Positions 1 through 16,650 of a stretch of 32,000 nt of DNA are shown in pieces. Each line of letters begins with the position of its first letter. Within the stretch, counting starts at the first letter, position 1. The stretch is from an uncultured bacterium. GTDB lineage: Bacteria > GCA-001730085. Location: the NCBI GenBank assembly GCA_964565945.1, contig CAZMGY010000021.1:60001-92000 (forward strand). Reading direction: 5' to 3'. A program made the position numbers and the translations under genes. The notes under the pieces were generated by a model. The model was not told the origin of the DNA. It ran no database searches and worked only from the letters and a program-made list of their open reading frames with translations.

Positions 1-1149
1 TTTAACACTGATAAGCTCGGTGAAGAAAAACAAAAAAACACCATTCTTCGCCACTTGCTGGAAGATTTTGCCAAAGATGAATTAAACCTTCGCCCCAGTC
101 GTGTTGGATCACTCGATGTGATCGGTAACGCCTACGAATATCTGATTAAGCACTTTGCCGCAGGTGGTGGGCAAAAAGCAGGAGAATTCTATACCCCGCC
201 CGAAGTATCTGACCTGATTGCAGAATTGCTAGACCCACAAGAAGACGACACAATTTCTGATCCGGCTTGTGGTTCTGGTTCCTTGCTCATGAAATGTGGT
301 CGTAAAATTAAAAAGCGTTTTAACAGCAAAAAATACGCACTCTACGGGCAAGAAGCTATTGGCTCTACTTGGTCTCTGGCGAAAATGAATATGTTCCTGC
401 ATGGCGAAGACAATCACAAAATAGAGTGGGGAGATACAATCAGAAACCCTAAGCTACTGAATAAGCATGGCGGCTTGATGCATTTTGATATTGTGACGGC
501 TAATCCTCCATTCAGTCTCGATAAATGGGGGCATGATGAAGCTGATCATGATCCGTTTGGACGTTTTCGTCGTGGTATTCCTCCAAAGACCAAAGGTGAT
601 TATGCCTTTATTTCGCATATGATCGAAACTATGGAGCCGACTACAGGGCGTATGGGCGTTGTTGTTCCGCATGGTGTTTTGTTTCGTGGTAGCTCAGAAG
701 GAAAAATCCGCAAACAATTGATAGAAGAAAATTTGCTTGATACGGTGATAGGACTTCCTGAAAAGCTCTTTTACGGTACAGGGATACCGGCGGCGATTCT
801 GATCTTTAAGAAAAATAAGGCGGATAGCAATGTCCTGTTCATTGATGCCAGCCGTGAATGTAAGACGGGTAAAAACCAAAACCTACTCACGCTTGATAAT
901 ATTAAAAAAATAGTCAAGACATATAAGGTGCGTAAAAGCTTTGATAAATATTCGTATTTGGCCAATTTTGAGGAGATTGAGGAAAACGACTTTAACCTTA
1001 ATATCCCGCGTTATGTCGATACTTTTGAAGAGGAAGAAGAAATTGACCTATTGGCAGTGCGTAAAGAGCGTGAAGAACTAAAAACTCAACTCGTCGAACT
1101 GGAAACGGAAATGGATGGTTATCTCAAGGAGCTGGGTTATGGTTCCTGA
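1..1149 (+). CDS. hsdM: Type I restriction-modification DNA methyltransferase subunit HsdM (5' end cut by window edge)
   Basis: Frame 1 is open from base 1. SAM-binding motif DPACGSGSLL and N6-adenine MTase catalytic motif NPPF (TANPPFSL). Stop 1147-1149 is overlapped by the hsdS start. Confidence 0.93.
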   Translation, partial: FNTDKLGEEKQKNTILRHLLEDFAKDELNLRPSRVGSLDVIGNAYEYLIKHFAAGGGQKAGEFYTPPEVSDLIAELLDPQEDDTISDPACGSGSLLMKCGRKIKKRFNSKKYALYGQEAIGSTWSLAKMNMFLHGEDNHKIEWGDTIRNPKLLNKHGGLMHFDIVTANPPFSLDKWGHDEADHDPFGRFRRGIPPKTKGDYAFISHMIETMEPTTGRMGVVVPHGVLFRGSSEGKIRKQLIEENLLDTVIGLPEKLFYGTGIPAAILIFKKNKADSNVLFIDASRECKTGKNQNLLTLDNIKKIVKTYKVRKSFDKYSYLANFEEIEENDFNLNIPRYVDTFEEEEEIDLLAVRKEREELKTQLVELETEMDGYLKELGYGS

Positions 1150-2374
1150 TGGGTGGAAAGAAGAAAATCTTGGAACTCTTTTTGAGTTTAAAAATGGCGC
1201 TAATACTGAGGCAGCCAATTACGGTTCTGGAATTAAGTTTGTTAATGTGATGGACGTGTTTGGTAATCACTTTATTACTAGCGAGAAAATTCGTGAAAGA
1301 GTTAATCTGCCTGAAAAAAAGATTAATTTATATTTGTTAAAAATGGGCGACGTATTATTTAATAGAACGTCAGAGGTTTTCGACGAAATTGCTCTAACTG
1401 CTGTTTATATGGATACTTCACCAGCAATATTTGGTGGCTTCGTTATTAGGGGGCGACCTAAGGCTAACGAACTTGACTTTAAATTTTGTATTTATTGTTT
1501 TTCATCTTATAGAGTCCGTAAGGAATCTATAAGAAGAGGGCAAGGGGTAATACGATCGAACATTGGTCAAAAAGACCTACAGTATGTTCCGTTGTTAGTT
1601 CCTCCTATTATAGAACAAAAGAAAATAGCCAAAATATTATTGACTTGGGATCGAGCGATTGAGGTAACAGAAAAACTAATCAGCAATAGTCAGCAACAAA
1701 AAAAGTCCCTCATGCAACAACTCATCACTGGCAAAAAACGCCTTCTGGGATTTAGTGATGAATGGGAAAAGATTCGATTAAAGCCTCTTTTAGAGGAGGG
1801 AAAGGCTAGAAATAAAGATAGTTCAATACAACGAGTATTAAGTGTTACTAATCATAGCGGTTTTGTATTACCAGAAGATCAATTTTCAAAACGTGTGGCG
1901 AGCAGTAATGTCAGTAACTATAAAATAGTTAAACGTGGAGAATTTGCATATAACCCATCTCGTATAAACGTTGGTTCATTTGCGCGTCTTGATGATTATG
2001 ATGAGGGTATTCTTAGCCCAATGTATGTTGTTTTCAGTGTTAAGAAAGATTCGCTATTTAGTGACTTTTTCTTTCAGTGGATGTCATCACATCACGCAAA
2101 ACAACGTATTCTTTCAAGTACGCAGGGATCGGTAAGAGATTCAGTCAGTTTTCAAGCACTTTGTGCGTTCCCGTTTTTGCTTCCATCACTAAAAGAACAA
2201 CGAAAAATTGCGTCAGTTCTTTTATCTGCGGATAAAGAAATTGAAACTCTTCAACAAAAACTCGAATACCTCAGCCAAGAAAAAAAGGCGCTGATGCAAC
2301 AACTCCTCACTGGCAAACGCCGTGTGAAAATTGATGAAGATGGTATTTCTCAGAAGGAGGTTGTGCGTGCCTGA
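1139..2374 (+). CDS. hsdS: Type I R-M specificity subunit HsdS (two target-recognition domains)
   Basis: ATG at 1139 (MVPDGWKEENLG...) overlaps the hsdM stop by 11 nt. The conserved spacer helices are duplicated: LMQQLITGKKRL (central, nt ~1709-1742) and LMQQLLTGKRRV (C-terminal, nt ~2291-2324). This is typical of HsdS. Confidence 0.9.
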   Translation: MVPDGWKEENLGTLFEFKNGANTEAANYGSGIKFVNVMDVFGNHFITSEKIRERVNLPEKKINLYLLKMGDVLFNRTSEVFDEIALTAVYMDTSPAIFGGFVIRGRPKANELDFKFCIYCFSSYRVRKESIRRGQGVIRSNIGQKDLQYVPLLVPPIIEQKKIAKILLTWDRAIEVTEKLISNSQQQKKSLMQQLITGKKRLLGFSDEWEKIRLKPLLEEGKARNKDSSIQRVLSVTNHSGFVLPEDQFSKRVASSNVSNYKIVKRGEFAYNPSRINVGSFARLDDYDEGILSPMYVVFSVKKDSLFSDFFFQWMSSHHAKQRILSSTQGSVRDSVSFQALCAFPFLLPSLKEQRKIASVLLSADKEIETLQQKLEYLSQEKKALMQQLLTGKRRVKIDEDGISQKEVVRA

Positions 2375-3443
2375 TATTATTTCATTTGAAGCCGCTATTG
2401 CGGAGTCAGAACAATATAAAAAACGTCATTTATTGCTAGGCAATGGTTTTAGTATTGGCTGTCGAGCTGACATATTTCATTATGAGTCTCTTTTTGGGGA
2501 AGCTGATTTTTCGGCAATTCCTGAGGCTAAACAGGTTTTTGAATCTTTACAGACACAGGATTTTGAAGTTGCAATTCGCGCACTTGAGAATGGTTCAAAA
2601 ATTCTACCTATCTATGTGCCCAATGATGACGCAAGCGTTCAGGCAATGAGTAATCATGCTATTGCGCTTAAAGATTTGTTAGTTGCCACAATTGCTGGCA
2701 ACCATCCTCCTAATCCTAATGCAATAGATGATCCAGAGTTTTGGGCTTGCCGACAGTTTTTAAGTTATTTCCTCGCTTCGGATAAGGGAGGACATGTCTT
2801 CACTCTAAACTATGACTTATTACTGTATTGGGCATTGATGCATGATGACAATCCATTTGATGAGGAAGTGGTGGAGCTGAACAAGAATGATGGGTTCGGA
2901 AATGATGAAGATGATCCAGAAGCGGATTATGTTCTCTGGCAAGGTGAGACCTCCGCGCATAGTGCAAATATACTTTTTCTGCACGGTGCACTTCATCTAT
3001 TTGACTCGGGTGCAGAGCTACAGAAATATACTTGGGTTCGTAAGGGTGAACCATTGGTGGATCAAGCGCGCACTGCAATAGCTGCGAATAAATTCCCTCT
3101 TTTTGTCGCGGAAGGAACAAGTACACAAAAGAAAAACAAAATTCGCCATAACGCATATCTTTACCAGTGTTTTAAGGTTCTGACAGCCAACGCACAGACT
3201 GGCACGCACTGTTTTTTCATATTTGGACATTCGTTAGCTGATAGTGATGACCACATCCTAAAACGTCTTGGTAAAGGCCGTTTTAAGAAATTATATGTAG
3301 GTATTTTTGGTGATGCGGATACGCCAGAAAATAGGAATGTGATTGCACGCGCAAATGCTATCGCAGCACTTAGACATGATAGGTATCCTCTTGAGGTGGT
3401 GTTTTTCGATTCCTCATCCGCTAATGTTTGGGGGAATGATTAA
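2367..3443 (+). CDS. SIR2-like (DUF4917-type) protein embedded between hsdS and hsdR
   Basis: GTG 2367 lies 6 nt after RBS AAGGAGG (2354-2360) and overlaps the hsdS stop. The stop TAA shares a base with the hsdR ATG (TAATG at 3441-3445). Motifs read by eye: LLLGNGFS (Rossmann GxG, nt 2439-2453), TLNYDLLL (TQNID-like, nt 2808-2816) and FLHGALH (catalytic HG-like, nt 2982-2987). The family name is from memory and was not searched. Confidence 0.6.
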   Translation: MPDIISFEAAIAESEQYKKRHLLLGNGFSIGCRADIFHYESLFGEADFSAIPEAKQVFESLQTQDFEVAIRALENGSKILPIYVPNDDASVQAMSNHAIALKDLLVATIAGNHPPNPNAIDDPEFWACRQFLSYFLASDKGGHVFTLNYDLLLYWALMHDDNPFDEEVVELNKNDGFGNDEDDPEADYVLWQGETSAHSANILFLHGALHLFDSGAELQKYTWVRKGEPLVDQARTAIAANKFPLFVAEGTSTQKKNKIRHNAYLYQCFKVLTANAQTGTHCFFIFGHSLADSDDHILKRLGKGRFKKLYVGIFGDADTPENRNVIARANAIAALRHDRYPLEVVFFDSSSANVWGND

Positions 3444-6400
3444 TGGCTTTGATTCCCAAATTCCAAGAAGAATACAGCGCGAAAATTCCAGCATTAACGC
3501 TGCTTCATAATCTTGGTTGGACGTTCTTATCACCCGAGCAAGCTTTATCCGCTCGCAATGGCAAAACCAGTGAGGTGGTTTTACGTGAAGTGTTGAGAGA
3601 AGAACTTCGAAAACGCCGTTTTACTTTTGCAGGGAAAGAACGCGTTTTTTCTGAAAATGCTATTGATAATGTTATTGCGGAACTATGCGCGCCAGCTTTG
3701 AACGAAGGCTTAGGTGTTGCTAATGAAAGAATATATAACCATTTGCTTTATGGTATATCGGTAAAAGAGTTTATTGACGGTAAGAAAGTAAATCCAACAA
3801 TCCAAATTATTGACTGGGACAATGTTGATAATAATAGTTTTCTTTTTACCGAAGAATTTAGTGTTTTAAGAACGGGTGAAGTTGAATCCCGTAGACCAGA
3901 TATTGTTTGTTTTGTGAATGGATTGCCATTTGCAGTGATCGAAGCAAAACGTCCTGATGGTCATACCAATAAGGGATTGACCATTGATGAAGGTATTTCC
4001 CAGAATATCCGCAATCAACGCAATGATGAAATCCCTCATTTATTTGCATACTCCCAACTTCTTTTTTCAATCAATGGGGCTGATGGTCGTTATGGCACGC
4101 AAGGTACATCAAAACCGTTTTGGGCACCTTGGCGCGAAGAAGATATTTCTGAAGGAGAATTTTATATCCTGAAAAATAAAGCATTGAGTTCTGATGCAAA
4201 AGATACACTGTTTTCGCATAGACCAAAGCAGGATCGTAAGTGGTATGAAGAGCTTATAGTTGGTGGCGAACTTGCCGTTACTGAACAAGACAAAATGCTC
4301 ATAAGTCTTCTTTCTCCATCACGGTTGATTGAAATGACAAGATATTTTGTATTGTTCGATAAAAAAATAGGGAAAGTGGCAGCACGATATCAGCAAGTAT
4401 TTGGTATTAAGCGTCTGATCGAGAGAATTAATACAAAAGATAATAAGGGCGTGCGTCAGGGTGGTGTTATATGGCACACCACTGGCTCTGGTAAATCTTT
4501 TACCATGGTCTTCTTGTCGAAAGCTCTTATCTTGCATGGCTCATTGAAGCAGTGCCGTATCGTGGTCGTAACTGATCGTGTTGATTTGGAAAGCCAGTTA
4601 AGTACGACCTTTAGTACAGGCGGAGAACTTGCCAGCAAGAAGGATAAAGCAGCCGCTATTGCAACATCTGGAAGAATGTTAGCAGAACAGATTTCTAAAG
4701 GTAATGAGCGAATAATGTTTTCTATTATTAACAAATTTGCTGTCGCCGCCAAAATGCAAGAGTGTCATAACCTAAGCTCTGACATTATCGTTCTTATTGA
4801 TGAAGGACATCGTTCGCAAGGCGGTGAAAACTTTATCCGTATGCGCAATGCTCTGCCTAATGCAGCTTTTATTGCATTTACAGGAACGCCGTTGTTAAAA
4901 GATGATAAAACGGAAAATAAATTCGGCTCGATTGTTCATGCCTATACGATGCAAAGAGCAGTTGAAGACAAAGCTGTTACACCTCTGCTATATGAAGAAC
5001 GTATCCCTGATCTTGATGTAAATGAACGAGCGATTGATAGTTGGTTTGATCGGATTACAGAGGGTCTCACAGATGAGCAGAAGACGGATTTAAAAAAGAA
5101 ATTTGCCAAGAAAGGACACCTTTATCAATCCGAAGATCGTATTCGTTTGATTGCTTATGATATAGCTAATCATTTTGTGAAGAATATTGATGATGGACTT
5201 AAGGGGCAGATTGCTTGTGATAGTAAATTATCAGCCATTAAATATAAGCAATTCATGGATGAGCTTGGTCTGTTTAAATCTGCGGTTGTAATGTCTGCGC
5301 CAGATACCAGAGAGGGCAACACAGATGTTGATGAAGCTACTATCCATGAGGTGGCTAAGTGGTGGAAGGAAAATGTAGGATCACAGGATGAGAAAAGTTA
5401 CACAAAAAATATTGTTAAGCGATTTGAGGAAGATAATGACCTTAAAATTATAATCGTAGTTGATAAGTTACTTACTGGATTTGATGAACCGAGAAATACA
5501 GTTCTTTACATTGATAAGCCCCTCAAAGAGCACAGCCTGATTCAAGCTATAGCGCGAGTTAATCGTTTGCATGAGAAAAAGAAATTCGGTTTGCTTATTG
5601 ATTATCGCGGTATTCTGGCAGAGCTTGATACCACAATAGCTAAATATCAGGATTTGGCTAGCCGTACTCAAGGTAGATTTGATATTGAAGACCTTGAAGG
5701 TCTCTATCAACAAATGAGCACCGAATATAAAAAACTACCGCGTTTGTATAAAGATTTATTAGCAATATTCAAGAATGTTAAAAATAAAGGCGATATTGAA
5801 CAGCTTCGTCAGGTTATAGTTCCAAAAGTACAAGAACAACATGGTGAAATGGTAGATATTAATTTAAAAGCACGTGAAGACTTCTATGATCGATTAAGTG
5901 AGTTTGCTAATTGTTTGAAAGTTGCTTTGCAATCAGCTAGTTTTTATGAAGATAAAAGCTTCACAGAACAGGACAGAAAGCACTACAAAGAAACTGTTAA
6001 ACAATATTCATCATTGCGTCAACTTGCCAAGGCTGATGCGGGTGAGACAGTCGATTACGACGAATATGCCGAGCAAGTAAAGAAGCTGATGGATAAGCAT
6101 GTTGTCGGTGTGGAGGTTAAAGAACCTGATGGTGTTTATGAAGTAGGTAAGATGGGTAAATCTGATCCAAAAGACTGGTCAGAAGATAAAACTCGAAACG
6201 AAACCGATATTATAAAAACTCGTATTACTCGCATGATAGAGCAAAGCTTGCGTGATGATCCTTATGCGCAAGAAGTTTTTTCTAAGCTACTTAAGCAGGT
6301 AATAGAGGAAGCAGAAACCTTGTTTGACCATCCGTTGAAGCAATACATGCTGTTTAAAGAATTTGAAGAAAAAGTCGAAAAACGTGAAGTCGATAGTTTG

Positions 6401-6718
6401 CCTGATAAGTTTGCAGATAATAAGCACGCACAAGCCTACTATGGTGTTTTGAAAATGTATGTTGGCGAAAACCTTTCTACCATAGATGAAGAACTATCTG
6501 ACCGATGGGTGGGGCTTTCTTTCAATGTAGATGAGATTATTACGAATGCTATAGCCGAGCACTCAATAAATCCCCAAAACATTGAATCCGAAATTCGAAA
6601 CAAGCTACTTCCTATGATCTTTAGTGAGTGTAAGAAAGTAGGTTCAGGAATAGATCAGACTAAGGCAATAACTGAAAGAATTGTTCAGATTGTACGCGTA
6701 GGACTAAATCACTCATGA
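3443..6718 (+). CDS. hsdR: Type I restriction enzyme endonuclease/translocase subunit HsdR
   Basis: N-terminal PD-(D/E)xK motif RPDIVCFVNGLPFAVIEAKRP. SF2 helicase motifs WHTTGSGKS (I), LIDEGHRSQ (II, DEAH-type) and FTGTPL (III). Length is 1091 aa. The gene is coupled to both neighbours by overlapping stop/start codons. Confidence 0.93.
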   Translation: MALIPKFQEEYSAKIPALTLLHNLGWTFLSPEQALSARNGKTSEVVLREVLREELRKRRFTFAGKERVFSENAIDNVIAELCAPALNEGLGVANERIYNHLLYGISVKEFIDGKKVNPTIQIIDWDNVDNNSFLFTEEFSVLRTGEVESRRPDIVCFVNGLPFAVIEAKRPDGHTNKGLTIDEGISQNIRNQRNDEIPHLFAYSQLLFSINGADGRYGTQGTSKPFWAPWREEDISEGEFYILKNKALSSDAKDTLFSHRPKQDRKWYEELIVGGELAVTEQDKMLISLLSPSRLIEMTRYFVLFDKKIGKVAARYQQVFGIKRLIERINTKDNKGVRQGGVIWHTTGSGKSFTMVFLSKALILHGSLKQCRIVVVTDRVDLESQLSTTFSTGGELASKKDKAAAIATSGRMLAEQISKGNERIMFSIINKFAVAAKMQECHNLSSDIIVLIDEGHRSQGGENFIRMRNALPNAAFIAFTGTPLLKDDKTENKFGSIVHAYTMQRAVEDKAVTPLLYEERIPDLDVNERAIDSWFDRITEGLTDEQKTDLKKKFAKKGHLYQSEDRIRLIAYDIANHFVKNIDDGLKGQIACDSKLSAIKYKQFMDELGLFKSAVVMSAPDTREGNTDVDEATIHEVAKWWKENVGSQDEKSYTKNIVKRFEEDNDLKIIIVVDKLLTGFDEPRNTVLYIDKPLKEHSLIQAIARVNRLHEKKKFGLLIDYRGILAELDTTIAKYQDLASRTQGRFDIEDLEGLYQQMSTEYKKLPRLYKDLLAIFKNVKNKGDIEQLRQVIVPKVQEQHGEMVDINLKAREDFYDRLSEFANCLKVALQSASFYEDKSFTEQDRKHYKETVKQYSSLRQLAKADAGETVDYDEYAEQVKKLMDKHVVGVEVKEPDGVYEVGKMGKSDPKDWSEDKTRNETDIIKTRITRMIEQSLRDDPYAQEVFSKLLKQVIEEAETLFDHPLKQYMLFKEFEEKVEKREVDSLPDKFADNKHAQAYYGVLKMYVGENLSTIDEELSDRWVGLSFNVDEIITNAIAEHSINPQNIESEIRNKLLPMIFSECKKVGSGIDQTKAITERIVQIVRVGLNHS

Positions 6719-7464
6719 GGAATTTAGCTACACACAGGAATGGTTCAATTCAATATGGAGATACAGCCATTAATTTTTCTATTGAACCCAGAGCAACAGA
6801 TGCACCAAAAGTTTTAATAAAAGTACATCCAGATTGCCGCGTTGTAGCACTTGCACCACCGATGGCATCTCATGATGAAATTATGCAGGCGGTAAAGAAA
6901 CGAGCACGATGGGTTTGTAAACAAATGCGGTACTTTGATAAACAACGCGAAAATATTCTCCCGCGTCACTATGTTAGTGGCGAAAGTCATTTCTATCTTG
7001 GGCGTAGGCATCTATTAAAGGTTCAAGAAAATGCTCAAGATACTCCCAAGGTGAAGTTGCTACGGGGTGTTTTGGAAGTTCAAGTACGCAAAGTAAGCCC
7101 AGAAAAAATAAAAGCAATGCTTTTTGATTGGTATAGAGTTCGTGCTAAAGAAGTATTTGATCGTAGGCTAGAAGAAGTTGTTTCTAAAACATTGTGGGTA
7201 AATGATAAGCCATCTATTCACCTTCTTTCTATGCAGACGCAATGGGGGAGTTGCTCGCCGAAAGGTCAGTTGACAATTAATCCTCATTTGGTGAAAGCAC
7301 CAAGAGATTGTATTGATTATGTGCTACTTCATGAGCTTTGCCATATTGCAGAACATAATCATAGTGAACGGTTCTATCGGCTAATGAAGCAAGTTATGCC
7401 TCATTGGGAAAAAGTAAAAGAAAGACTCGATGGTATGGCTTACTTTTATTTGAACGATACTTAA
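6715..7464 (+). CDS. DUF45/YgjP-type (M48-like) HExxH metal-dependent hydrolase
   Basis: ATGA overlap with the hsdR stop (6715-6718). The zinc motif HELCHIAEHNHSERFY closely parallels E. coli YgjP HELAHLKEKEHNKAFY (recalled from memory). Confidence 0.82.
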   Translation: MRNLATHRNGSIQYGDTAINFSIEPRATDAPKVLIKVHPDCRVVALAPPMASHDEIMQAVKKRARWVCKQMRYFDKQRENILPRHYVSGESHFYLGRRHLLKVQENAQDTPKVKLLRGVLEVQVRKVSPEKIKAMLFDWYRVRAKEVFDRRLEEVVSKTLWVNDKPSIHLLSMQTQWGSCSPKGQLTINPHLVKAPRDCIDYVLLHELCHIAEHNHSERFYRLMKQVMPHWEKVKERLDGMAYFYLNDT

Positions 7465-7582
7465 GGGTTTTCATTGATTACGCATTACTGGGAACTAACG
7501 ATTGCTTGATAAATGGCTATTCGCATAGTTTTTGTTAAAAATTGAGTGCTAACCAATAGCGGACATAAGCAAAGGAGATATC

Positions 7583-10500
7583 TTGGGGAAAAAAGAAGCA
7601 AGGCGCACTAAGTCAAAGTCAACACCGCGTCAAACAGGTGGGGCAGGATACGACTTCGAAGATTTGATTGCAGCCTGGATGATGGTGAAGATGCTGCGTG
7701 AGATTAGGTTGCCAGGTGTTGAGGAGTTTGGTACAGCGATTCAATGGCAAGCGGAAGTGTTAGGTTGGGAACAGATCGATGACCTTCTGGTTACATGTGT
7801 GGTTGAAGAAGAAAAGAAAAAGCAGCTAGCCATCTCTTGTAAAAGCAACATGCAAGTTAGTGGGTCTGGGCTTCCATTTGATTTTCTCAAAAATGCTTGG
7901 TCACTATGGATAAAAGGCGAGCCTTTTAATAAGGAAAATGATTGCATGATGTTGGTTCAGAAAGGCAGCAATCAAAATTTTTTTACTGCTTGGGCAGACC
8001 TAAAATATTGGTGTTCTGAGGGCGATGTAGAAACGGCTCTAGCACGAATTACAGCTTCTCAGAAACATAGTAAAATATACAATGGCGTTAAGGCTCCTGA
8101 TAAAAGCAGTAATTATACAAACGAAGATACTATTGCGCTTATACGCAGTTTAGAAGTTATTCCTGCAGATTTTCATTTAGCTAGTTCGGAATACGAAGAC
8201 ACTTCATTATCCCATTGTCGTGATCTTTTGCAGGATGGCTCTGAAGAGACTGCAAAAAAGCTATGGGACTGGCTTCTCAAGAAAGCTAAAGTCAAACGTA
8301 TCTCAGGTGGAACATTACAGCTATCAGAGTTGTGGCAAGAATTGGTTCCAGCATTTGATTTAAAAGACCATCCAAACTTTCTTTCATCATGGAAGTCTCT
8401 TAAAGCTATATCCGAAGAATATAAGAGATCAATCGAAATTGAATTGCCTAATGGTCATAGTGTCATAAGGCCTGCCGAAGAAGACCTGATAGAGCATCTT
8501 AGAGATGGTCCAATATGTATTGTATATGGTAGCTCTGGAAGGGGTAAATCGGCGGTTGTTAAATCTACTTTAGATAAGAAGCTATCTGATTGGAATCAGG
8601 TTTGGTTTTCTCCGGAAAACCTAGACTTAGCTTCAAGTGAAAGGACTCGCTCAGAAGTGGGATTGCTTAGACCTTTGCAGGATGTACTTGCTCACTCATC
8701 GGAAGAAAAAAATGTCCTAATTATAGATTCTGCTGAGAGGATTAACCCCGATAGCAGAAAAATTGTAAAGTCGCTTATTTCCAACCTATTGATACACAAT
8801 GGCGAACAGAAGAGTCGTTTGAACTGGCGAGTTATCATTGTTGGGCAAACCGAGGCTTGGGCATCTGGCAATTTTCATGAAATTTCAGGACTCTCTTCTA
8901 TTCAGCCTATAGAAATTTCTTCCCTTGACCCTTCGGATGTCAGAGCAGCTTTGCATTCAAGCAATCACTTATCTTGGCTTGCTTCGGATAACGAAGCGCT
9001 TATAGCCTTAGGTAACTTGAAAACTTTGGCTTGGGTAATGCGAGCTGGAACCATTTTTCCAAAAGGGGGAATGAATAGCATATCGTTGCCTGCAATCGCT
9101 GATCGTTTATGGTCGTATTGGACAAAAGATAAAATAAAACTTCAGAATCTTCTGATGCAACTTGCTGAACGTGAAGCTCAATTTGAACGTAGCTTTCCTA
9201 TCAGTGGGTTTGGTATTGATGTAAGCCAAGCTCTTGATGAAGGTTTGGAATGCTTGCCACTACGAAAAAGAAAAGAGACTAATTCAATCGAGTTTGAGCA
9301 TGACCTGGGTGCTGATTGGGCAAGGTTTCAGCGTTTAAAAGAAATAAAAAATGACATAAGCTCTTGGGCACCATTTGCTAGCAACCCTCTCTGGCATAAT
9401 GCTTTGCGCATGATGGGGCAACTCCTATTACGAGAAAAAACTGAACAAGGAACACTATGGGATGTTGTTTATGATGAAGCAGAAAAAACAAAAGTTGAAA
9501 ATCCTTTAGCAGCAGATATTCTCTTAGATTCTTTGTGCCTTGATCCATTTGCTGCGCATTATCTTAATGAGCGGTCGGATATACTTTTTGCAGATAACGG
9601 GGCTCGTTTAAACCGCTTATTAAAACGTTTTCATCATATAGCGACCGTTTCAAATGTCTCTAGCGAGTCCTTGGACATTGATCCCTCGCTAAAATTGTAT
9701 TTAGAAGACATGCAAAGGTTGCCAATCTATGGTCGTTGGCCACAAATTGCACAATTTCTTTCAGATCACAAAGAACAAGTTTCCAGCCTAATCTCACCAA
9801 CTATTTCAAAACTATGTGAGACTTGGCTTACAACAACACCTCTCTATCTTGATCCTGAGGCAAATACGCCGATGCCCTATAGAAAGGTATTTGCAGAGCT
9901 TGCTTTAAGCACGGTAAGGACTTTACAACTTGAGCAAAAGAAAGGGCACTTGTGGCTCACAGATGACAGCGAAAAGCCTCTTTATGGGGCAGCATTTGCG
10001 GCTGTAAACGATCTTCCTGACGAAGTCTGCGAATGGGCTTTAGAAATGGCCTGTAGAAGACCTTGCAAAAAAGAAATACCTGAAGCGCTTGCAGCCTATC
10101 GAGAAGAAAGAAGAAAAGAACATAGAGAAAAATTGCGCACTGATAAGGCTTATCCTGAAAGGCACGAGCGTTTACGTTCAATGCCTTCCGGTATTTCAAG
10201 CCATAGAGATTTACCTCCATGGCCATTAGGGCCACAAGGTAGTGTAGATAATACTTTTCGAGATTATTGCTTGAACTCAAACTCCATGGCTAGGCTGATG
10301 TATCTAAGGCCAGAAGTTGCAAGCGAGTGCCTTCTTGCAATGCTAATAGATTATTCGCGTAGCCCTCTCCGAGATGATTTAGGTCTAGTGTATAGTCACA
10401 CAGGATACCCTACGGCATATTGGAAAAGTCCATTTTTCCAGTTTTTACAGTTGAATAGCACTATAGCCATGGATTCCCTTATTTCGCTCGTTAATTTTTG

Positions 10501-12835
10501 TACAGATCGATGGGCAGATGATTTTGAGAGCGATTATAGTCTAGAGGTAAGTCTACGAGATGGTCAAAAACAAAGTTTGAAAGGAAACGGACATGTTTTC
10601 TCCTGGTCTCAAGAAAGCTCCACATCTAACGGACAGCTCTACTGTGCGTTAGCAGCACTAGAAAAATGGATTTATATTGAAATTGATAAGGACGCAGATG
10701 TAGAGCCTGCGCTCAAGAGACTTATCGAAAACTCAAATTCTGTTGCAATAATAGGCGTGCTCCTAAATGTCGGTAAATACAAACCAAGCTTATTTACAAG
10801 CGCATTACAACCTTTTTTAGGGGTATATGAATTCTATCAAGCCGATGACAACCGCCTTCTAGATGCCGGGCATTGGTATGATGCTGGGGCATGGCCGTGT
10901 GAGGGTGAAAAAATATTTGAAATGGCCAAAGAGTGGCACTTTGCTCCGCACCGGAAAATTCCGTTGCGGCAATTAGCTGTTCAACTTGCTCTCAGTGATA
11001 AAGAGACAGCCTCTTTTATTAAGGAAGCTTCTGAAAGTTGGGAAACACATTCAGTCGAGGAAAAATATGATTTAGAGGTAAGGATATTAAAAGCTGAACT
11101 TGATCCTGAAAATTATAAGCCAGAAAAAGACCAACAATCTGGGCAGACATTATTGAGGTGTTATTACCCAGACAAGCTACAGAAGGACATAGAAGATTTT
11201 CAGAAAAGAAAAAGTCCGAGATGGCATGCTGTTACTATACCTATTCAATGTGAAGAATTATTGGCTTCGTCTCATAACATTACTGATGAAGAGGCTGAGA
11301 GATTAGCTTCTGCACTCAATGTTGTTCCTATAGAAGAAGATGAAGAGAGCATCCTCGCGACAGAAGCGGCGATCGCAGCTACGTTGTTAATAAAGGCACC
11401 TAGCTGGCTAGACAAAAACCCTGATCTTAAAAAGAAAACAAATGAAATTATTCAAAATATAATTTCTAGTATTGGAGACACCTTAGAATCTTTGAGAGCT
11501 ACCGGACATCTTATGAGTGATAGGTCGCTTGCCTTTGCCACTCATGTTGTTGTTGAAGAATTTATAAACAACCCGTCCCATGATAGGGACGTAGATGCTT
11601 CTGTATTAAGAATTTTAACCAGTGGTGACAACCAGGCTGTCTTCATTTTGATGAATGCGGCTTATCAAAATAGAGATAAGCTAGGTGATCGCTGGTGGCG
11701 TCTCATACAAATATCAATCTTTTGTGCTGGACTTAATAGCCTTAGTCCGGGCTTTAGAGAAGATGAAGATAAATCGATTGAATTACGTTGGGCGCGTTGG
11801 TTGATATGGTTGCGCACCCGTGATTTAAACGTTTCAGTAAATGCAGAAGCTATTGACCCAATCGGATTAGCGGTTCGTGTGGATCGTTTAAAAATGGCTC
11901 GTATTAAACGGCTATTTGGAAAAGATACAGACGGACGTTTGCGTTACTATCATCGAGGGTTTTTTGGCCTTGAGACCTACACGTTGGATAAAATGTTTTC
12001 ATGGATGCTGAGTGATCATGGGCAAGGGGCTGACAATAGTTCGGATGTGCGTCTCTTAACTCAAAAACTTTGGGTGTTCGAAGCTTGGAGAAAGCAAAAA
12101 AGCGAAGAAGCCAACGATGAAGATAATGACCGTGATAGCCTTCCAAGCGATTTAGGTTACTCGCTTCTTCAAAAGCTATCAAAGCTTATGCTGACTGCAC
12201 AAAAAGATGAAGCGTCTAAGATTTGGAAGCCGATACTTTCTATGGGCGTAGATGGTCATCATTCTATTGAGCATTTCATTGATGGGTGGCTGCTAGGAGT
12301 GGTTCAAACCAAAAATACAAACTCCCTTTCTCAGTTTTGGAGAGAATTAATTGAGTTTGCGCTCTTATCTCCCAACTGGTCTCCCAATAAATATTGGTAT
12401 AAAGGAGAAGAGTTATTTCGACATCTTTTAGGATTTGGCTTGATTAATCTTGCGGAGTTTGAAGGTGCTCAAAACATTATTTTCGAAATAAAGGATCTGT
12501 ATAAACGTTGGGCTGATACACACCTTTCTCAGGAAGAGGAAAATATAGCAGGCTTTGCATATTTTCTTTCCTCTAAAGTGGGGGCACCTATTCGGTATGA
12601 TGGTCTGCTGTGGATCAGAGACTCCTTGCGACCTCCCAATCCTGCATATTGGCGTCGAATGGAAACCGGACGCTCTCTTGTTGATCTTTTGGATGTTATC
12701 ATTACCGAAGAAACTAAACAAATATCTTCAGATTCTGAGTTTCGCGATGCGTTATTGAGGGTTGCAGCACATTTGGCTGATAGGCAAGTTCCTATTGCAT
12801 TATTGTTGCAAGAGAAGATTCGCCAGGTGCATTAG
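7583..12835 (+). CDS. 1750-aa multidomain protein: Cap4/DUF4297-like PD-(D/E)xK nuclease N-terminus, P-loop NTPase and a long alpha-helical C-terminal region; candidate STAND/Avs-like defence protein
   Basis: TTG start at 7583 follows RBS AAAGGAGA (7571-7578). N-terminal aa 19-89 read GGAGYDFEDLIAAW ... IDDLLV ... LAISCKS. Walker A is GSSGRGKS (aa 316-323, nt 8528-8551). Walker B-like is VLIIDSAE (aa 378-385, nt 8714-8737). The uninterrupted 5.25-kb ORF makes the CDS call safe. The function is inferred from motifs only. Confidence 0.85.
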   Translation: MGKKEARRTKSKSTPRQTGGAGYDFEDLIAAWMMVKMLREIRLPGVEEFGTAIQWQAEVLGWEQIDDLLVTCVVEEEKKKQLAISCKSNMQVSGSGLPFDFLKNAWSLWIKGEPFNKENDCMMLVQKGSNQNFFTAWADLKYWCSEGDVETALARITASQKHSKIYNGVKAPDKSSNYTNEDTIALIRSLEVIPADFHLASSEYEDTSLSHCRDLLQDGSEETAKKLWDWLLKKAKVKRISGGTLQLSELWQELVPAFDLKDHPNFLSSWKSLKAISEEYKRSIEIELPNGHSVIRPAEEDLIEHLRDGPICIVYGSSGRGKSAVVKSTLDKKLSDWNQVWFSPENLDLASSERTRSEVGLLRPLQDVLAHSSEEKNVLIIDSAERINPDSRKIVKSLISNLLIHNGEQKSRLNWRVIIVGQTEAWASGNFHEISGLSSIQPIEISSLDPSDVRAALHSSNHLSWLASDNEALIALGNLKTLAWVMRAGTIFPKGGMNSISLPAIADRLWSYWTKDKIKLQNLLMQLAEREAQFERSFPISGFGIDVSQALDEGLECLPLRKRKETNSIEFEHDLGADWARFQRLKEIKNDISSWAPFASNPLWHNALRMMGQLLLREKTEQGTLWDVVYDEAEKTKVENPLAADILLDSLCLDPFAAHYLNERSDILFADNGARLNRLLKRFHHIATVSNVSSESLDIDPSLKLYLEDMQRLPIYGRWPQIAQFLSDHKEQVSSLISPTISKLCETWLTTTPLYLDPEANTPMPYRKVFAELALSTVRTLQLEQKKGHLWLTDDSEKPLYGAAFAAVNDLPDEVCEWALEMACRRPCKKEIPEALAAYREERRKEHREKLRTDKAYPERHERLRSMPSGISSHRDLPPWPLGPQGSVDNTFRDYCLNSNSMARLMYLRPEVASECLLAMLIDYSRSPLRDDLGLVYSHTGYPTAYWKSPFFQFLQLNSTIAMDSLISLVNFCTDRWADDFESDYSLEVSLRDGQKQSLKGNGHVFSWSQESSTSNGQLYCALAALEKWIYIEIDKDADVEPALKRLIENSNSVAIIGVLLNVGKYKPSLFTSALQPFLGVYEFYQADDNRLLDAGHWYDAGAWPCEGEKIFEMAKEWHFAPHRKIPLRQLAVQLALSDKETASFIKEASESWETHSVEEKYDLEVRILKAELDPENYKPEKDQQSGQTLLRCYYPDKLQKDIEDFQKRKSPRWHAVTIPIQCEELLASSHNITDEEAERLASALNVVPIEEDEESILATEAAIAATLLIKAPSWLDKNPDLKKKTNEIIQNIISSIGDTLESLRATGHLMSDRSLAFATHVVVEEFINNPSHDRDVDASVLRILTSGDNQAVFILMNAAYQNRDKLGDRWWRLIQISIFCAGLNSLSPGFREDEDKSIELRWARWLIWLRTRDLNVSVNAEAIDPIGLAVRVDRLKMARIKRLFGKDTDGRLRYYHRGFFGLETYTLDKMFSWMLSDHGQGADNSSDVRLLTQKLWVFEAWRKQKSEEANDEDNDRDSLPSDLGYSLLQKLSKLMLTAQKDEASKIWKPILSMGVDGHHSIEHFIDGWLLGVVQTKNTNSLSQFWRELIEFALLSPNWSPNKYWYKGEELFRHLLGFGLINLAEFEGAQNIIFEIKDLYKRWADTHLSQEEENIAGFAYFLSSKVGAPIRYDGLLWIRDSLRPPNPAYWRRMETGRSLVDLLDVIITEETKQISSDSEFRDALLRVAAHLADRQVPIALLLQEKIRQVH

Positions 12836-12896
12836 AAGTTTTATTGAATTATCAAACCAAACAATAACAATTTACGTTCACTTTGCACTTTAGTGA

Positions 12897-13109
12897 TTAC
12901 AGGTTACTTTGTGCGTAGTAATCGAGGTAAACCTCTTCAACCTTGTTTCCATTTGGTACTTTGACATCATGATGACCAGTGTCTAATTTTCCCTTTTCAA
13001 TTTGATCTGCAAGTGATCGTAATACCCAAGCCACGGCTTTGCCATTGCTGCAATCAATCTCTATATCGCATTTTAACCGTTCTTCGAAGTCTGGATCACC
13101 ATCGAGCAT
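12897..13109 (-). CDS. Hypothetical small acidic protein (70 aa)
   Basis: ATG at 13109 is preceded on the minus strand by AAGGAG, 8 nt upstream. No recognisable motif. Confidence 0.55.
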   Translation of the reverse strand: MLDGDPDFEERLKCDIEIDCSNGKAVAWVLRSLADQIEKGKLDTGHHDVKVPNGNKVEEVYLDYYAQSNL

Positions 13110-13219
13110 GTTTTAAACTCCTTTGCTGAGCTTTTTTTATATTTGTAGGGCTTCGCTATAGAGCATGATGTGAAAACATTAATGACGAGGTCAGTTTCAG
13201 CTTTTTGACAGAAAAAGCT

Positions 13220-13399
13220 TCAAGGGCATGGTGGCATATAAGTCAATTCACTTTGAATATTTTCAATAGATGCTAAAGCATTTCTTCTTTGATGCGTATG
13301 AGGTTCACTCATCGCAAGTTCGTTAAAAGCATTTCTTAAATATCCATGTAGCTCACTTTCGTTTTTTGCTGCCAATTCAAATCTTGTTACCAGTCTCAT
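13220..13399 (-). CDS. Hypothetical small protein (59 aa; internal start of the 71-aa track ORF)
   Basis: The MRLVTRFELAAK... start at 13399 is preceded by AGGAGG (minus strand ...CAGGAGGTAAAAATG). The longer track start at 13435 lacks an RBS. Confidence 0.5.
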   Translation of the reverse strand: MRLVTRFELAAKNESELHGYLRNAFNELAMSEPHTHQRRNALASIENIQSELTYMPPCP

Positions 13400-13857
13400 T
13401 TTTACCTCCTGTTTGTGGAGGTCGCGTTTATTCACGACCTTTGTTAAAGCCGCTTGTGCGCTGGAAAAATGGACTGCACCTTTGGTCGAAATATATGGAG
13501 AAGCGTGGCAAATCTCATGCTTGCAGTTCTAATGATCTCAAGTGCTTAAATAGGTTTTATAAAAGTCTGATAAAAACGCCCCTCATACAAAAGAGTAAGA
13601 GAGGCTGAATAACTAAATTGTTGGCTCACTTGAAAAAAATAAGAGAGCCAGTTGGTTTAATAGAAAAGATGAAGGACGCTGCGCCCCCTCAAATTCAAGA
13701 ATAATGACGGTTTCCATTTGGGTAAGTCTCAAATAGACCCTCCGCAATTTTTCTGGATTTTTTCACCCCCGCCTAGTCGCCCTAGTCGGCAGAAGTTCAG
13801 GCGCGAGGCAAAAACGCTTCGCTAAGAACTTCAAAACCGAATTTAGGAGATAATAAA

Positions 13858-14370
13858 ATGAGTGCAGAAATTAGAATTTATGTGGCATGTTTGGCAGCGT
13901 ATAACGGCGGTAGATTGCATGGCGTTTGGATTGACGCAACCGATGAGCTGGACGATATTCAAGAGCAAGTAAATATGATGCTAAAAGAAAGCCCAGAGCC
14001 AGACGCAGAAGAATGGGCGATACATGATTACGAGGGTTTTGGTGGTTATAGCGTTAGCGAATATTCAGGGTTTGAAGAGCTTCACGATGTTGCGTCTTTT
14101 ATTGAAGAATATCCAGAAATTGGTGGGGAGCTTTTAGATCATTGCTCAGACCTTGAAGAAGCCAGGAAAGCCATAGAAGAAAGCTATGCAGGATGCCATA
14201 AATCACTTGCAGATTTTGCCGAGGAAACAACCGAGGAAACAACCGAAATTCCTGAGCATTTACGGTATTACATTGATTATGAAAAAATGGGGCGTGATAT
14301 GGAAATGAGCGGAGACGTTTACACAATTGAAACAGGTTATGAGGAAGTGCATATATTTTGGAATCATTAA
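13858..14370 (+). CDS. ardA: Antirestriction protein ArdA (type I R-M inhibitor, DNA mimic family)
   Basis: RBS AGGAGA at 13845-13850. Strongly acidic. Blocks IYVACLAAYNGGRLHGVW, EEWAIHDYEGF and YIDYEKMGRDMEMSG parallel Tn916 ArdA blocks YIANLGKYNEGELVGAW, EEYAIHDYE and YIDYQAYGRDLDLSG (from memory). Confidence 0.9.
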   Translation: MSAEIRIYVACLAAYNGGRLHGVWIDATDELDDIQEQVNMMLKESPEPDAEEWAIHDYEGFGGYSVSEYSGFEELHDVASFIEEYPEIGGELLDHCSDLEEARKAIEESYAGCHKSLADFAEETTEETTEIPEHLRYYIDYEKMGRDMEMSGDVYTIETGYEEVHIFWNH

Positions 14371-15924: not shown

Positions 15925-16650
15925 ATGAGTATTGCACAAGCCATTGAAAATTCGGTTAAATCCATGCCTTCTGGCCAGATTTTTGGCTATCAGGAGTTGC
16001 CTAGCTACGCTAAATCACCAGGGGCTGTGATTAAGGCGATTAGCCGTCTGGTGGCTGATAAGAGGTTGGAACGGTTTTCTAAGGGCAAGTTTTACGTACC
16101 CAAAAAAGGCATGTTAGGTGCTAGAAAACCCTCAGATAGTGAGTTGATCCGTTCAATGTTGTACAAGGACGGGCGTTTGCGTGGTTATGTGACTGGCCTA
16201 TCTCTCTATAATCAACTGGGTCTTACAACGCAGGTGCCGCGCACAATTACGGTTGCCTATAACGGTGGTCGTCAGAAAAAAGAATATGGAACAATTCGTA
16301 TTAAGACGGTCGTTACACGTGTTCCGATTAAGGAAAAGGACGTTAAGCTTCTTCAATATTTGGACGCGCTTAAAGACATAAAAAAAATTCTAGATTCTGA
16401 TGTAAATCTTTCTCTTAAGATTATTCGCGGCTATATATCTAAGTTATCTGATCGTGAGCGTAGTCGTTTGGTGGAACTGGCGCTAAATTACTATAACCCT
16501 CAAGTCAGAGCATTGGTTGGCTTATTGTTCACAGATTTAAAACTCTCGGTTCCAAGCTCTTTGGCTCACTCACTTAACCCAACAACGACCTATAAGCTTA
16601 AGCTGGATCGCTCAATGTGGCCAATGGCCAAAGAATGGAATATCCAATAA
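15925..16650 (+). CDS. abiEi: AbiEi-like antitoxin/transcriptional regulator (type IV TA / abortive infection)
   Basis: RBS AAGGAG upstream. An N-terminal winged-helix-like region is followed by a C-terminal domain. The stop TAA shares a base with the ATG of the downstream AbiEii-type gene (TAATG at 16648-16652). Confidence 0.7.
   Translation: MSIAQAIENSVKSMPSGQIFGYQELPSYAKSPGAVIKAISRLVADKRLERFSKGKFYVPKKGMLGARKPSDSELIRSMLYKDGRLRGYVTGLSLYNQLGLTTQVPRTITVAYNGGRQKKEYGTIRIKTVVTRVPIKEKDVKLLQYLDALKDIKKILDSDVNLSLKIIRGYISKLSDRERSRLVELALNYYNPQVRALVGLLFTDLKLSVPSSLAHSLNPTTTYKLKLDRSMWPMAKEWNIQ

What the first reader, a model, noticed from the sequence alone, without database searches (positions are those of the whole stretch)
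2367..3443. SIR2-like (DUF4917-type) gene inserted between hsdS and hsdR and coupled to both
Both junctions are overlaps. GTG 2367 sits inside the hsdS stop region, 6 nt after AAGGAGG, and the 3' junction is TAATG (3441-3445) with hsdR. The gene is therefore probably co-translated with the R-M subunits rather than being a loosely linked passenger.

The protein carries three elements in the SIR2 order: GNGFS (Rossmann), NYD (TQNID-like) and LHGALH (catalytic His-Gly-like). SIR2 domains act as NAD+-depleting effectors in Thoeris, DSR, SIR2-HerA and SPARSA systems.

I do not know of any functional description of a SIR2-type effector wired into a type I R-M operon. It could act as an abortive second layer triggered by HsdR activity or by anti-restriction proteins.
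Basis: partly seen in the sequence, partly recalled or inferred. Interest (0 to 1): 0.7.

Follow-up and report, generated by a model that had tools for sequence, protein, structure and literature searches.

The report
SIR2-like cargo gene inside restriction operon
A small SIR2-like gene (family DUF4917, already listed as the untested phage-defence candidate PDC-S21) sits between the S and R genes of a type I restriction operon, but comparison with relatives shows it occupies a freely exchangeable cargo slot and is probably not a dedicated partner of the restriction enzyme.

Summary
A 358-codon gene (2367..3443) starts at a GTG 6 nt after AAGGAGG, overlaps the hsdS stop by 8 nt, and shares TAATG with the hsdR start. 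It is a full-length DUF4917 protein (Pfam E=1.4e-66) and matches PADLOC candidate PDC-S21 (E=5.6e-120). Its predicted fold and invariant GNGFS / NYD / HG motifs match defence-type SIR2 NADases, and it has no zinc ribbon.

The inference that it is wired into the restriction enzyme is not supported:
- Of the 80 closest genomic homologues, 37 lie between hsdS and hsdR, 10 have hsd genes nearby in other or contig-truncated arrangements, and 33 have no hsd gene within 10 kb.
- Embedded and solo copies interleave on the tree and show no group-specific residues.
- Of 42 related hsd operons, 3 carry DUF4917 in this slot, about 26 carry other cargo (RhuM, Fic, AbiD, kinase) and 13 are empty.
- The two nearest relatives have extra cassettes inserted exactly at the DUF4917/hsdR junction.

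The best reading is an autonomous, NAD+-consuming single-gene defence candidate riding in a cargo slot of the operon. A PrrC-like guardian role remains possible but unsupported. The embedding was already catalogued by Payne et al. 2024, and no anti-phage test of the family was found.

The parts
55..1149 (+). hsdM, type I R-M methyltransferase. Only the 3' part is present because the gene is cut by the window start. The full gene is 507 aa in source contig L085, where a 198-aa half-size HsdS-like gene precedes it.
   Evidence: Pfam N6_Mtase 5.5e-106 and PADLOC MTase_I 2.4e-114. Gene calls in L085 and L086.
1139..2374 (+). hsdS specificity subunit. It is 411 aa by the public gene call; the longest ORF starts at 1115. 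The two TRD regions diverge from L005, while the central and 3' conserved regions are retained.
   Evidence: Pfam Methylase_S 1e-21 and PADLOC Specificity_I 5.4e-103. Gene call. blastn gaps at the TRDs.
2354..2360 (+). Shine-Dalgarno sequence AAGGAGG, inside the last codons of hsdS and 6 nt upstream of GTG 2367.
   Evidence: Sequence. The junction is conserved in L005, L006, L085 and L086.
2367..3443 (+). DUF4917 / PDC-S21 gene, 358 aa, a SIR2-like single-domain protein. Motifs: GNGFS nt 2439-2453, NYD nt 2808-2816, HG nt 2982-2987. A conserved acidic loop spans residues 162-196. There is no Zn ribbon.
   Evidence: Pfam PF16263 1.4e-66. PADLOC PDC-S21 5.6e-120. AF2 model pLDDT 71, pTM 0.75. 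Foldseek best hits are the SIR2 of SIR2-HerA, E 4e-5, TM 0.44-0.49. Invariant columns. Motif alignment to 8j4u.
3443..6718 (+). hsdR restriction subunit, 1091 aa. Its ATG shares one base with the DUF4917 stop (TAATG).
   Evidence: Pfam HSDR_N, SWI2_SNF2, T1R_D3-like and ResIII. PADLOC REase_I 1407 bits.
6715..7464 (+). YgjP-like (WLM/SprT-type) zinc metallopeptidase with an ATGA overlap to hsdR. It is the conserved last gene of this hsd operon family.
   Evidence: Pfam YgjP-like 3.4e-55. Found directly after hsdR in 35 of the 37 embedded loci plus the window itself and in most HsdR relatives.

Best explanation
The gene encodes a single-domain SIR2-like enzyme of the DUF4917 family (PADLOC candidate PDC-S21).

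**Shown**
- It has the SIR2-type NAD-binding Rossmann core with the GxGxS, N-x-D and H-G catalytic triad of motifs.
- It lacks the sirtuin zinc ribbon.
- It is the third gene visible in the window of a co-oriented, tightly packed operon whose full order in the source contig is half-hsdS, hsdM, hsdS, DUF4917, hsdR, YgjP-peptidase. The operon lies in a defence island.
- The space between hsdS and hsdR in this hsd operon family is a cargo slot. In related operons it holds many different single-gene defence modules or nothing.

**Inferred**
- The protein is an autonomous, normally latent NAD+-consuming effector. On sensing infection by itself, most likely by binding a phage product as DSR2 does, it depletes NAD+ and aborts the infection.
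- Embedding gives it expression from the hsd promoter through translational coupling to hsdS. It also gives co-transfer with the R-M system, so the cell receives two defence layers as one unit.
- Its activity does not require HsdM, HsdS or HsdR.
For: **Identity and fold**
- DUF4917 at 1.4e-66 and PDC-S21 at 5.6e-120.
- the top 15 structural matches are all defence SIR2 proteins, followed by sirtuins among the weaker matches.
- GNGFS, TLNYDLLLYW and LHGAL align to LLGAGAS, TTNYDLALEW and LHGSL of the E. coli SIR2-HerA SIR2.
- these residues are invariant down to 23% identity.

**Autonomy**
- 33 of 80 closest homologues have no hsd gene within 10 kb.
- the NJ tree interleaves embedded and solo copies many times.
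- 95 columns are conserved at 90% or more in both groups, and none is conserved in only one group. Lengths are the same.
- solo copies have no recurrent neighbour.
- relatives sit upstream of hsdM, downstream of hsdR, or alone on plasmids beside retron, ABC-3C and toxin-antitoxin loci.

**Cargo slot**
- the same operons carry RhuM/PDC-S05, Fic/PDC-S04, DUF4357/PDC-S14, dGTPase, PD-T4-6 kinase, AbiD and another SIR2_2-like protein.
- of 42 HsdR relatives, 3 have DUF4917, about 26 have other cargo and 13 have none. Operons with more than 90% identical HsdR hold different cargo.
- the window, L005 and L006 are colinear except for cassettes of 0, 1.7 and 1.1 kb placed exactly between the DUF4917 stop and the hsdR start.

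**Literature**
- PDCs were defined by embedding and proposed as defence genes (10.1101/2024.01.29.577857).
- From my own knowledge of the field, not checked with these tools, the characterised defence SIR2 domains (ThsA, DSR1/2, SIR2-HerA, SPARSA) act by NAD+ depletion.
- The one DUF4917 protein assayed, SliP, consumed NAD+ in a manner dependent on the GNG motif (PMC10421069).
Against: - No experiment shows anti-phage activity or NADase activity for this clade.
- A 358-aa protein with no recognisable sensor domain leaves the trigger unexplained. Characterised SIR2 defence effectors, as far as I know, have a partner or a sensor domain.
- Within the window's own subclade (window, L005-L009, L025, L034) every member is embedded.
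- DUF4917 distances track HsdM and HsdR distances (Spearman 0.70 and 0.73). Long-term linkage is therefore real and a functional tie cannot be excluded.
- The Pfam SIR2_2 match is below threshold (16.7 against 24.5 bits). The structural model is only moderately confident (pLDDT 71), with conserved loops unmodelled.
Confidence: 0.6

Rival explanations
1. PrrC-like guardian. The SIR2-like enzyme is held inactive by binding the HsdMSR complex. It is released to deplete NAD+ when a phage anti-restriction protein (Ocr, ArdA or Stp type) disables the restriction enzyme.
For: - It occupies the same position as prrC, between hsdS and hsdR (PMC12707154).
- It has tight translational coupling to hsdS, conserved in 26 of 37 embedded loci.
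- It has no sensor domain of its own.
- Every member of the window's subclade is embedded.
- Its distances correlate with those of HsdM and HsdR.
Against: - Association with hsd is far from exclusive: 33 of 80 homologues have no hsd gene. PrrC, by contrast, is almost exclusively embedded.
- Other cargo genes often separate DUF4917 from hsdS or hsdR.
- No residues are specific to embedded copies.
- Closely related hsd operons work with other cargo or none.
- An ArdA gene lies 7 kb downstream on the same island. That would be hazardous for an ArdA-triggered suicide module, although ArdA expression is probably transient.
Confidence: 0.15
2. Selfish passenger or addiction-type toxin. The gene persists because it is linked to, and expressed with, a mobile R-M operon, and it contributes nothing to phage defence.
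For: - The slot accepts many unrelated genes.
- Contexts are rich in mobile elements: integrase, transposase, relaxase and toxin-antitoxin neighbours.
- Payne et al. discuss a selfish benefit of embedding.
Against: - Purifying selection is strong. DUF4917 is more conserved than HsdR or YgjP in the same loci, with median distances of 0.47 against 0.61 and 0.63.
- Catalytic motifs are invariant.
- The cargo that could be identified in the same slot belongs to known or candidate defence families.
Confidence: 0.1
3. Protein-modifying sirtuin. It is an NAD-dependent deacylase or ADP-ribosyltransferase acting on a specific target. The target could be a host protein, as claimed for the secreted C. 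jejuni SliP, or an Hsd subunit, for example to tune restriction alleviation.
For: - SliP, a DUF4917 protein, was reported to deacetylate lysines with NAD+ and to need the GNG glycines (PMC10421069).
- The SIR2 chemistry allows it.
Against: - There is no CxxC...CxxC zinc ribbon. The protein has four Cys, none paired.
- The nearest structures are defence NADases, not deacylases.
- The environmental, non-pathogen hosts and the defence-island context do not fit a secreted virulence effector.
- Presence is variable among near-identical hsd operons, which argues against a role as regulator of the enzyme.
- The reported SliP activities were only about two-fold effects.
Confidence: 0.1

Closest known systems
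PADLOC phage defence candidate PDC-S21 / Pfam DUF4917 (PF16263)
   Same: The protein is a full-length, high-scoring match to both models. It is a single gene embedded in a type I R-M operon, which is how the PDC set was defined.
   Different: Nothing substantive; it is a member. The family itself has no tested defence function, and I could not retrieve the authors' own description of S21 because the stored supplements are truncated.
Defence SIR2 NADases: SIR2 of SIR2-HerA, ThsA (Thoeris), DSR1/DSR2, SPARSA SIR2-APAZ
   Same: - Rossmann-type SIR2 core without a zinc ribbon.
- The same motif triad in the same order.
- Best structural matches are 8suw, 8sub, 8wld and 8w9l.
- Defence-island context.
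   Different: - No partner ATPase, pAgo or TIR, and no SLOG or large C-terminal sensor domain. There is no conserved neighbour at all.
- Sequence similarity is at the noise level (SIR2_2 E=0.008; 8j4u E=0.38).
- A helical insertion spans roughly residues 42-136, and there is a conserved acidic loop at 162-196.
- NADase activity is untested.
PrrC / RloC anticodon nucleases embedded in hsd (EcoprrI)
   Same: A latent suicide-type effector gene placed between hsdS and hsdR of a type I R-M operon. This is the conceptual model for a second defence layer.
   Different: - The fold and chemistry are unrelated: ABC ATPase plus anticodon nuclease against SIR2-like.
- PrrC is almost exclusively embedded, whereas DUF4917 is often solo.
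- There is no evidence of masking by Hsd proteins.
C. jejuni SliP (Cjj81176_0779), a DUF4917 protein described as a secreted sirtuin
   Same: Same Pfam family, the same GNG motif, and reported NAD+ consumption.
   Different: - SliP lies next to dnaK/grpE rather than in an hsd operon and is claimed to act on host histones.
- The window's protein comes from an environmental metagenome contig in a defence island.
- Sequence identity to SliP was not measured.

Membership tests
DUF4917 (PF16263) / PADLOC PDC-S21 | Full-length match above the curated Pfam threshold | tested here: met
   225.5 bits against a cut-off of 28. Residues 22-355 cover profile positions 1-311 of 311.
DUF4917 (PF16263) / PADLOC PDC-S21 | Match to the PDC-S21 HMMs | tested here: met
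   PDLC04960 398.8 bits, E=5.6e-120, covering 1-356 of 358 residues. PDLC04961 E=9.1e-66.
DUF4917 (PF16263) / PADLOC PDC-S21 | Family-invariant residues retained | tested here: met
   G25, N26, G27, S29, T63, E67, H113, N148, Y149, D150, H206, G207, E249, G250, K255 and H296 are invariant in a 25-sequence alignment spanning 23-90% identity.
DUF4917 (PF16263) / PADLOC PDC-S21 | Anti-phage activity | not testable with these tools
   PDCs are explicitly untested. No paper pairing DUF4917 with defence was found.
SIR2 superfamily, defence NADase type | SIR2-type Rossmann fold | tested here: met
   Foldseek probability 1.00 and E 4e-5 to 1e-2 for 15 SIR2-HerA or PsSIR2 chains, with sirtuins (Sir2A, SIRT2, SIRT5, Sir2Tm) among the weaker matches that follow. 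TM-scores are only 0.41-0.49 and model pLDDT is 71.
SIR2 superfamily, defence NADase type | GxGxS NAD-binding loop, N-x-D motif and catalytic H-G in the canonical order | tested here: met
   The HMM alignment to 8j4u_A pairs GNGfS with GAGAS, tlNYDLllYW with TTNYDLALEW, and lHGal with LHGSL. These residues are invariant in the family.
SIR2 superfamily, defence NADase type | Significant sequence-profile match to a curated SIR2 model | tested here: not met
   Pfam SIR2_2 16.7 bits against a cut-off of 24.5, E=0.008. The PDB profile search reached only E=0.38. No PADLOC SIR2 model hit.
SIR2 superfamily, defence NADase type | Associated sensor or partner (HerA, pAgo, ThsB-TIR, SLOG or a large C-terminal domain) | tested here: not met
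   The protein is 358 aa with a single domain. Solo copies have no recurrent neighbour.
SIR2 superfamily, defence NADase type | NAD+ hydrolysis on infection | not testable with these tools
   Requires biochemistry.
PrrC-type R-M guardian | Gene embedded between hsdS and hsdR of a type I operon | tested here: met
   37 of 80 homologues show the same arrangement.
PrrC-type R-M guardian | Near-exclusive association with hsd genes | tested here: not met
   33 of 80 close homologues have no hsd gene within 10 kb. All five distant plasmid members whose context I examined (H22, H26, H29, H32, H34) are solo.
PrrC-type R-M guardian | ABC-ATPase N-domain plus anticodon-nuclease C-domain | tested here: not met
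   No such Pfam or PADLOC match; the fold is SIR2-like.
PrrC-type R-M guardian | Latency through binding to the R-M complex, with activation by an anti-restriction factor | not testable with these tools
   Indirect evidence is negative, since there is no embedded-specific conserved surface. Interaction was not modelled.
Canonical sirtuin deacylases | Cys4 zinc-ribbon module | tested here: not met
   The protein has four Cys and no CxxC pair. The conserved ones are C32, C128 and C282.

The most novel reading that the evidence does not exclude
In the hsd-embedded lineage, the DUF4917 SIR2-like enzyme is a guardian of the type I restriction enzyme. HsdMSR keeps it latent, and phage DNA-mimic or peptide anti-restriction proteins release it to burn NAD+. 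This would be a second, chemically unrelated PrrC-type system. The solo relatives would then use another trigger.
Probability: 0.15. Interest if true: 0.7.

Novelty: new member of a known kind. Interest (0 to 1): 0.3.

Why it matters
**If the protein is an NADase**
- DUF4917/PDC-S21 would be the smallest stand-alone SIR2 defence effector known. Its trigger would have to be sensed by the catalytic domain itself or by its conserved acidic loop. That makes it a useful minimal model for how SIR2 effectors are activated.

**What the comparative data add**
- The hsdS-hsdR gap of this YgjP-associated hsd family is a very active cargo slot. About two thirds of operons are occupied, and the contents differ between operons with more than 90% identical HsdR.
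- This makes the slot a practical place to mine new single-gene defences and to study how cassettes are exchanged.

- The value is modest. The embedding was already catalogued, and the evidence leans against a dedicated functional link to the restriction enzyme.

Tried and rejected
- **NCBIfam:** no model for the protein.
- **PDB sequence search with the close-homologue profile A1:** only spurious hits. The diverse profile A3 reached the E. coli SIR2 only at E=0.38, so it was used for motif correspondence, not as proof.
- **E. coli complete genomes (megablast) and GenBank phages (tblastn):** no match. Only a function-unknown PHROG matched, at 1.3e-27.
- **Promoter and terminator scans of 1..13900:** counts equal to shuffled expectation, so they say nothing on internal promoters or terminators.
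- **Literature:** no paper pairs DUF4917 or PDC-S21 with hsd or defence. The S. thermophilus and Sir2-HerA papers mention hsd only incidentally.
- **Payne et al. supplements:** no S21 or DUF4917 entry could be found because the stored tables are cut.
- **Conserved partner gene for solo copies:** considered and rejected, as none recurs.
- **Embedded copies as a distinct subfamily:** considered and rejected. They interleave with solo copies on the tree and have no group-specific columns.
- **A general recombination-site motif at cassette borders:** considered. The 17-nt junction is duplicated only in L005.
Full report
**1. The observation**

The window holds a co-oriented, tightly packed operon:

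| Gene | Coordinates | Note |
|---|---|---|
| hsdM | 55..1149 | 5' end cut by the window |
| hsdS | 1139/1115..2374 | |
| 358-codon gene | 2367..3443 | |
| hsdR | 3443..6718 | |
| YgjP-like metallopeptidase | 6715..7464 | |

AAGGAGG lies at 2354-2360 and an in-frame GTG at 2367. The hsdS stop TGA is at 2372-2374, giving an 8-nt overlap. TAATG at 3441-3445 is shared with hsdR.

The ORF could formally start earlier, at TTG 2331, ATG 2334 or ATG 2340. Three things support GTG 2367:
- Homologues are 354-361 aa and their N-termini align at M-P-x-I.
- The identical 358-aa product is the public gene call on two metagenome contigs.
- The GGAGG..GTGCCT junction is conserved in the closest relatives.

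The source contig (L085, 99.8% identical over 13 kb) shows that the operon begins with a 198-aa half-size HsdS-like gene followed by a 507-aa HsdM.

**2. What the protein is**

- It is a full-length DUF4917 protein (PF16263, E=1.4e-66).
- It matches PADLOC's PDC-S21 models (E=5.6e-120).
- NCBIfam has no model for it.

The Pfam SIR2_2 match is sub-threshold (E=0.008). However, an AlphaFold2 model built on 52 homologues (pLDDT 71, pTM 0.75) finds the SIR2 subunits of SIR2-HerA systems as its 15 best PDB matches (probability 0.96-1.00, E 4e-5 to 1e-2, TM 0.41-0.49). Classical sirtuins appear among the weaker matches that follow.

A diverse family profile aligns, at a non-significant E-value, to the same E. 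coli SIR2. The alignment is motif for motif: GNGFS with GAGAS, TLNYDLLLYW with TTNYDLALEW, and LHGAL with LHGSL.

G25, N26, G27, S29, N148, Y149, D150, H206 and G207 are invariant across members down to 23% identity. There is no CxxC zinc ribbon. The protein resembles the defence-type NADases rather than the deacylase-type sirtuins.

No structure of the family has been solved.

**3. How often it sits in hsd operons**

I fetched the 80 best genomic loci (44-89% identity). I then marked HsdM, HsdS, HsdR and YgjP with iterated profile searches seeded from the window.

| Context of DUF4917 | Loci |
|---|---|
| Between a full-size hsdS and hsdR, same strand | 37 |
| hsd genes nearby in another or a contig-truncated arrangement | 10 |
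| No hsd gene within 10 kb | 33 |

Among the 37 embedded loci:
- The gap to hsdS is 16 nt or less in 26.
- The gap to hsdR is 3 nt or less in 23.
- Both gaps are under 60 nt in 15.
- In 14 loci, 0.24-5.8 kb of sequence, in most cases carrying one or more further genes, lies between DUF4917 and hsdR.

Relatives on plasmids sit in several positions:
- upstream of hsdM in Rhizobium pRL11
- 550 nt downstream of hsdR in Methylobacter
- alone beside toxin-antitoxin genes in Leptospira

More distant members in E. coli, Klebsiella, Vibrio, Bacillus and Acinetobacter are solo genes. Most lie next to relaxases, a retron, an ABC-3C system or prophage genes.

**4. Is it tied to the restriction enzyme?**

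Several tests point against a dedicated tie:
- *Tree.* An NJ tree interleaves embedded and solo copies many times.
- *Sequence signature.* 95 columns are at least 90% conserved in both groups and none is conserved in only one group. Lengths are equal. There is therefore no sign of an Hsd-specific interaction surface.
- *Partners.* Solo copies have no recurrent neighbour. Their surroundings mix defence genes (DRT, CBASS, PD-Lambda), mobile-element genes and housekeeping genes.
- *Reverse survey.* I took 53 metagenomic relatives of the window's HsdR, of which 42 were informative. Three carry DUF4917 in the slot before hsdR, about 26 carry other genes and 13 carry nothing. Operons with 91-92% identical HsdR hold DUF4917, RhuM or an unknown 282-aa gene.
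- *Other cargo.* Cargo identified in the same operons includes RhuM/PDC-S05 (16 loci, usually between hsdM and hsdS), Fic/PDC-S04, DUF4357/PDC-S14, a dGTPase, a PD-T4-6-type kinase, AbiD, a McrB-like ATPase and another SIR2_2-like protein.
- *Nearest relatives.* The window, L005 and L006 are colinear at 75-84% DNA identity. The exception lies exactly between the last codons of DUF4917 and the first codons of hsdR. There, L005 has 1.7 kb (a 169-aa gene plus RhuM) and L006 has 1.1 kb (AbiD).

Two results point the other way:
- Within embedded loci, DUF4917 distances correlate with HsdM and HsdR distances (Spearman 0.70 and 0.73, against 0.87 for HsdM versus HsdR).
- All members of the window's own subclade are embedded.

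Linkage can therefore be long-lived. DUF4917 is also more conserved than HsdR or YgjP in the same loci, which shows it is under selection.

**5. Mechanism**

*Shown*
- A SIR2-like NAD-binding enzyme with an intact catalytic triad of motifs.
- Co-oriented with and translationally coupled to hsdS and hsdR.
- Located in a defence island that also carries a STAND NTPase, AbiEi/AbiEii and ArdA.

*Inferred*
- It is a latent NAD+-consuming effector that acts on its own.
- The operon gives it expression and co-transfer.

The NAD+ inference rests on two points. First, from my own knowledge, the characterised defence SIR2 domains (ThsA, DSR1/2, SIR2-HerA, SPARSA) act by NAD+ depletion. Second, the one assayed DUF4917 protein, C. 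jejuni SliP, consumed NAD+ in a manner dependent on the GNG motif (PMC10421069). That paper interprets SliP as a secreted deacetylase, and its effects were about two-fold.

The trigger is unknown. The nearly invariant but unmodelled acidic loop (residues 162-196) and the E249-G250...K255 segment are candidate regulatory or substrate elements.

I put the autonomous-cargo model at 0.6. The rivals are the PrrC-like guardian model at 0.15, a selfish passenger at 0.1 and a protein-modifying sirtuin at 0.1.

**6. Relation to what is known**

PrrC is the classical effector embedded in an hsd locus and activated when the restriction enzyme is inhibited (PMC12707154). Payne et al. (bioRxiv 10.1101/2024.01.29.577857) surveyed genes embedded in BREX, DISARM and type I R-M systems. 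They derived 145 untested phage defence candidates and put them into PADLOC. PDC-S21 is one of these models.

The embedding of this family in defence operons was therefore already catalogued. The SIR2 resemblance of DUF4917 was noted in the SliP paper. What is still missing is any functional test in a defence context. I found none.

**7. Verdict**

The gene is a new member of a known, catalogued but uncharacterised kind. Interest is modest (0.3). It would rise if the guardian model were shown to be true.

Noticed in passing
window 13858..14370 (+): An ArdA anti-restriction gene (PF07275, E=4.8e-48) lies about 7 kb downstream of the type I R-M operon it could inhibit. This suggests the island is part of a conjugative or integrative element. 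It would also be awkward for any ArdA-triggered suicide module.
   Followed up: partly
window 7583..12835 (+): A 1750-aa STAND-type NTPase lies directly after the hsd operon. It has only weak, partial similarity to Avs4 (PADLOC 2.9e-16; NCBIfam 72 bits against a cut-off of 1500), so it is not Avs4 proper. Large genes (1282-1506 aa) also follow the operon in L006 and L034, but I did not test whether they are related to it.
   Followed up: no
window 15925..17450 (+): An AbiEi (DUF6088) / AbiEii type IV toxin-antitoxin pair. It is preceded by a SEC-C-motif protein (14649..15692). The housekeeping gene tgt at 20355..21590 may mark the island edge.
   Followed up: no
window 6715..7464 (+); also L005-L084 and L092-L143: A YgjP-like (WLM/SprT-type) metallopeptidase with an ATGA overlap to hsdR is the conserved last gene of this hsd operon family. 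It follows hsdR in 35 of the 37 embedded loci, in the window itself, and in most HsdR relatives down to 28% identity. Its role in type I restriction is unexplained here.
   Followed up: partly
L085:6667-7263, the source contig just upstream of the window; also L010:5634-6281 and about 30 other loci: A half-size (about 200 aa, single TRD) HsdS-like gene sits directly upstream of hsdM, in addition to the full-size hsdS downstream. It is a conserved feature of this operon family (Pfam Methylase_S weak; PADLOC Specificity_I 1.3e-21).
   Followed up: partly
L005:11068-11084 versus L005:9990-10006 (window 2356-2372): The 3' end of DUF4917 in L005 carries a second copy of the hsdS-3'-end/SD/GTG junction (GGAGGTTGCGAGTGCCT, 2 mismatches in 17). 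It sits exactly where the 169-aa + RhuM cassette begins. This looks like a footprint of cassette transfer from an operon in which that cassette followed hsdS. It was not seen in the other loci.
   Followed up: partly
L010:7783-8826 and 15 other loci; L005:11525-12592; L042:7585-8649: A RhuM-family gene (PF13310, PADLOC PDC-S05) is the most frequent second cargo. It usually sits between hsdM and hsdS, but in L005 and L042 it lies between DUF4917 and hsdR. The same cargo therefore moves between slots of one operon family.
   Followed up: partly
L012:127-993 and L012:941-1972: Two DUF4917 genes in tandem on one contig (Inquilinus MAG) with no hsd genes nearby.
   Followed up: no
L007:7805-9364: In one relative a second, different SIR2_2-like protein (519 aa, Pfam E=3.6e-5) lies between hsdS and DUF4917. 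That operon therefore carries two SIR2-type genes in a row.
   Followed up: no
window 30315..31970 (-): A 551-aa protein with two kinase-like halves (Kdo/WaaP-type and ABC1-type). It gives weak PADLOC hits to PD-T4-6 and MkoA kinases and lies outside the apparent island.
   Followed up: no
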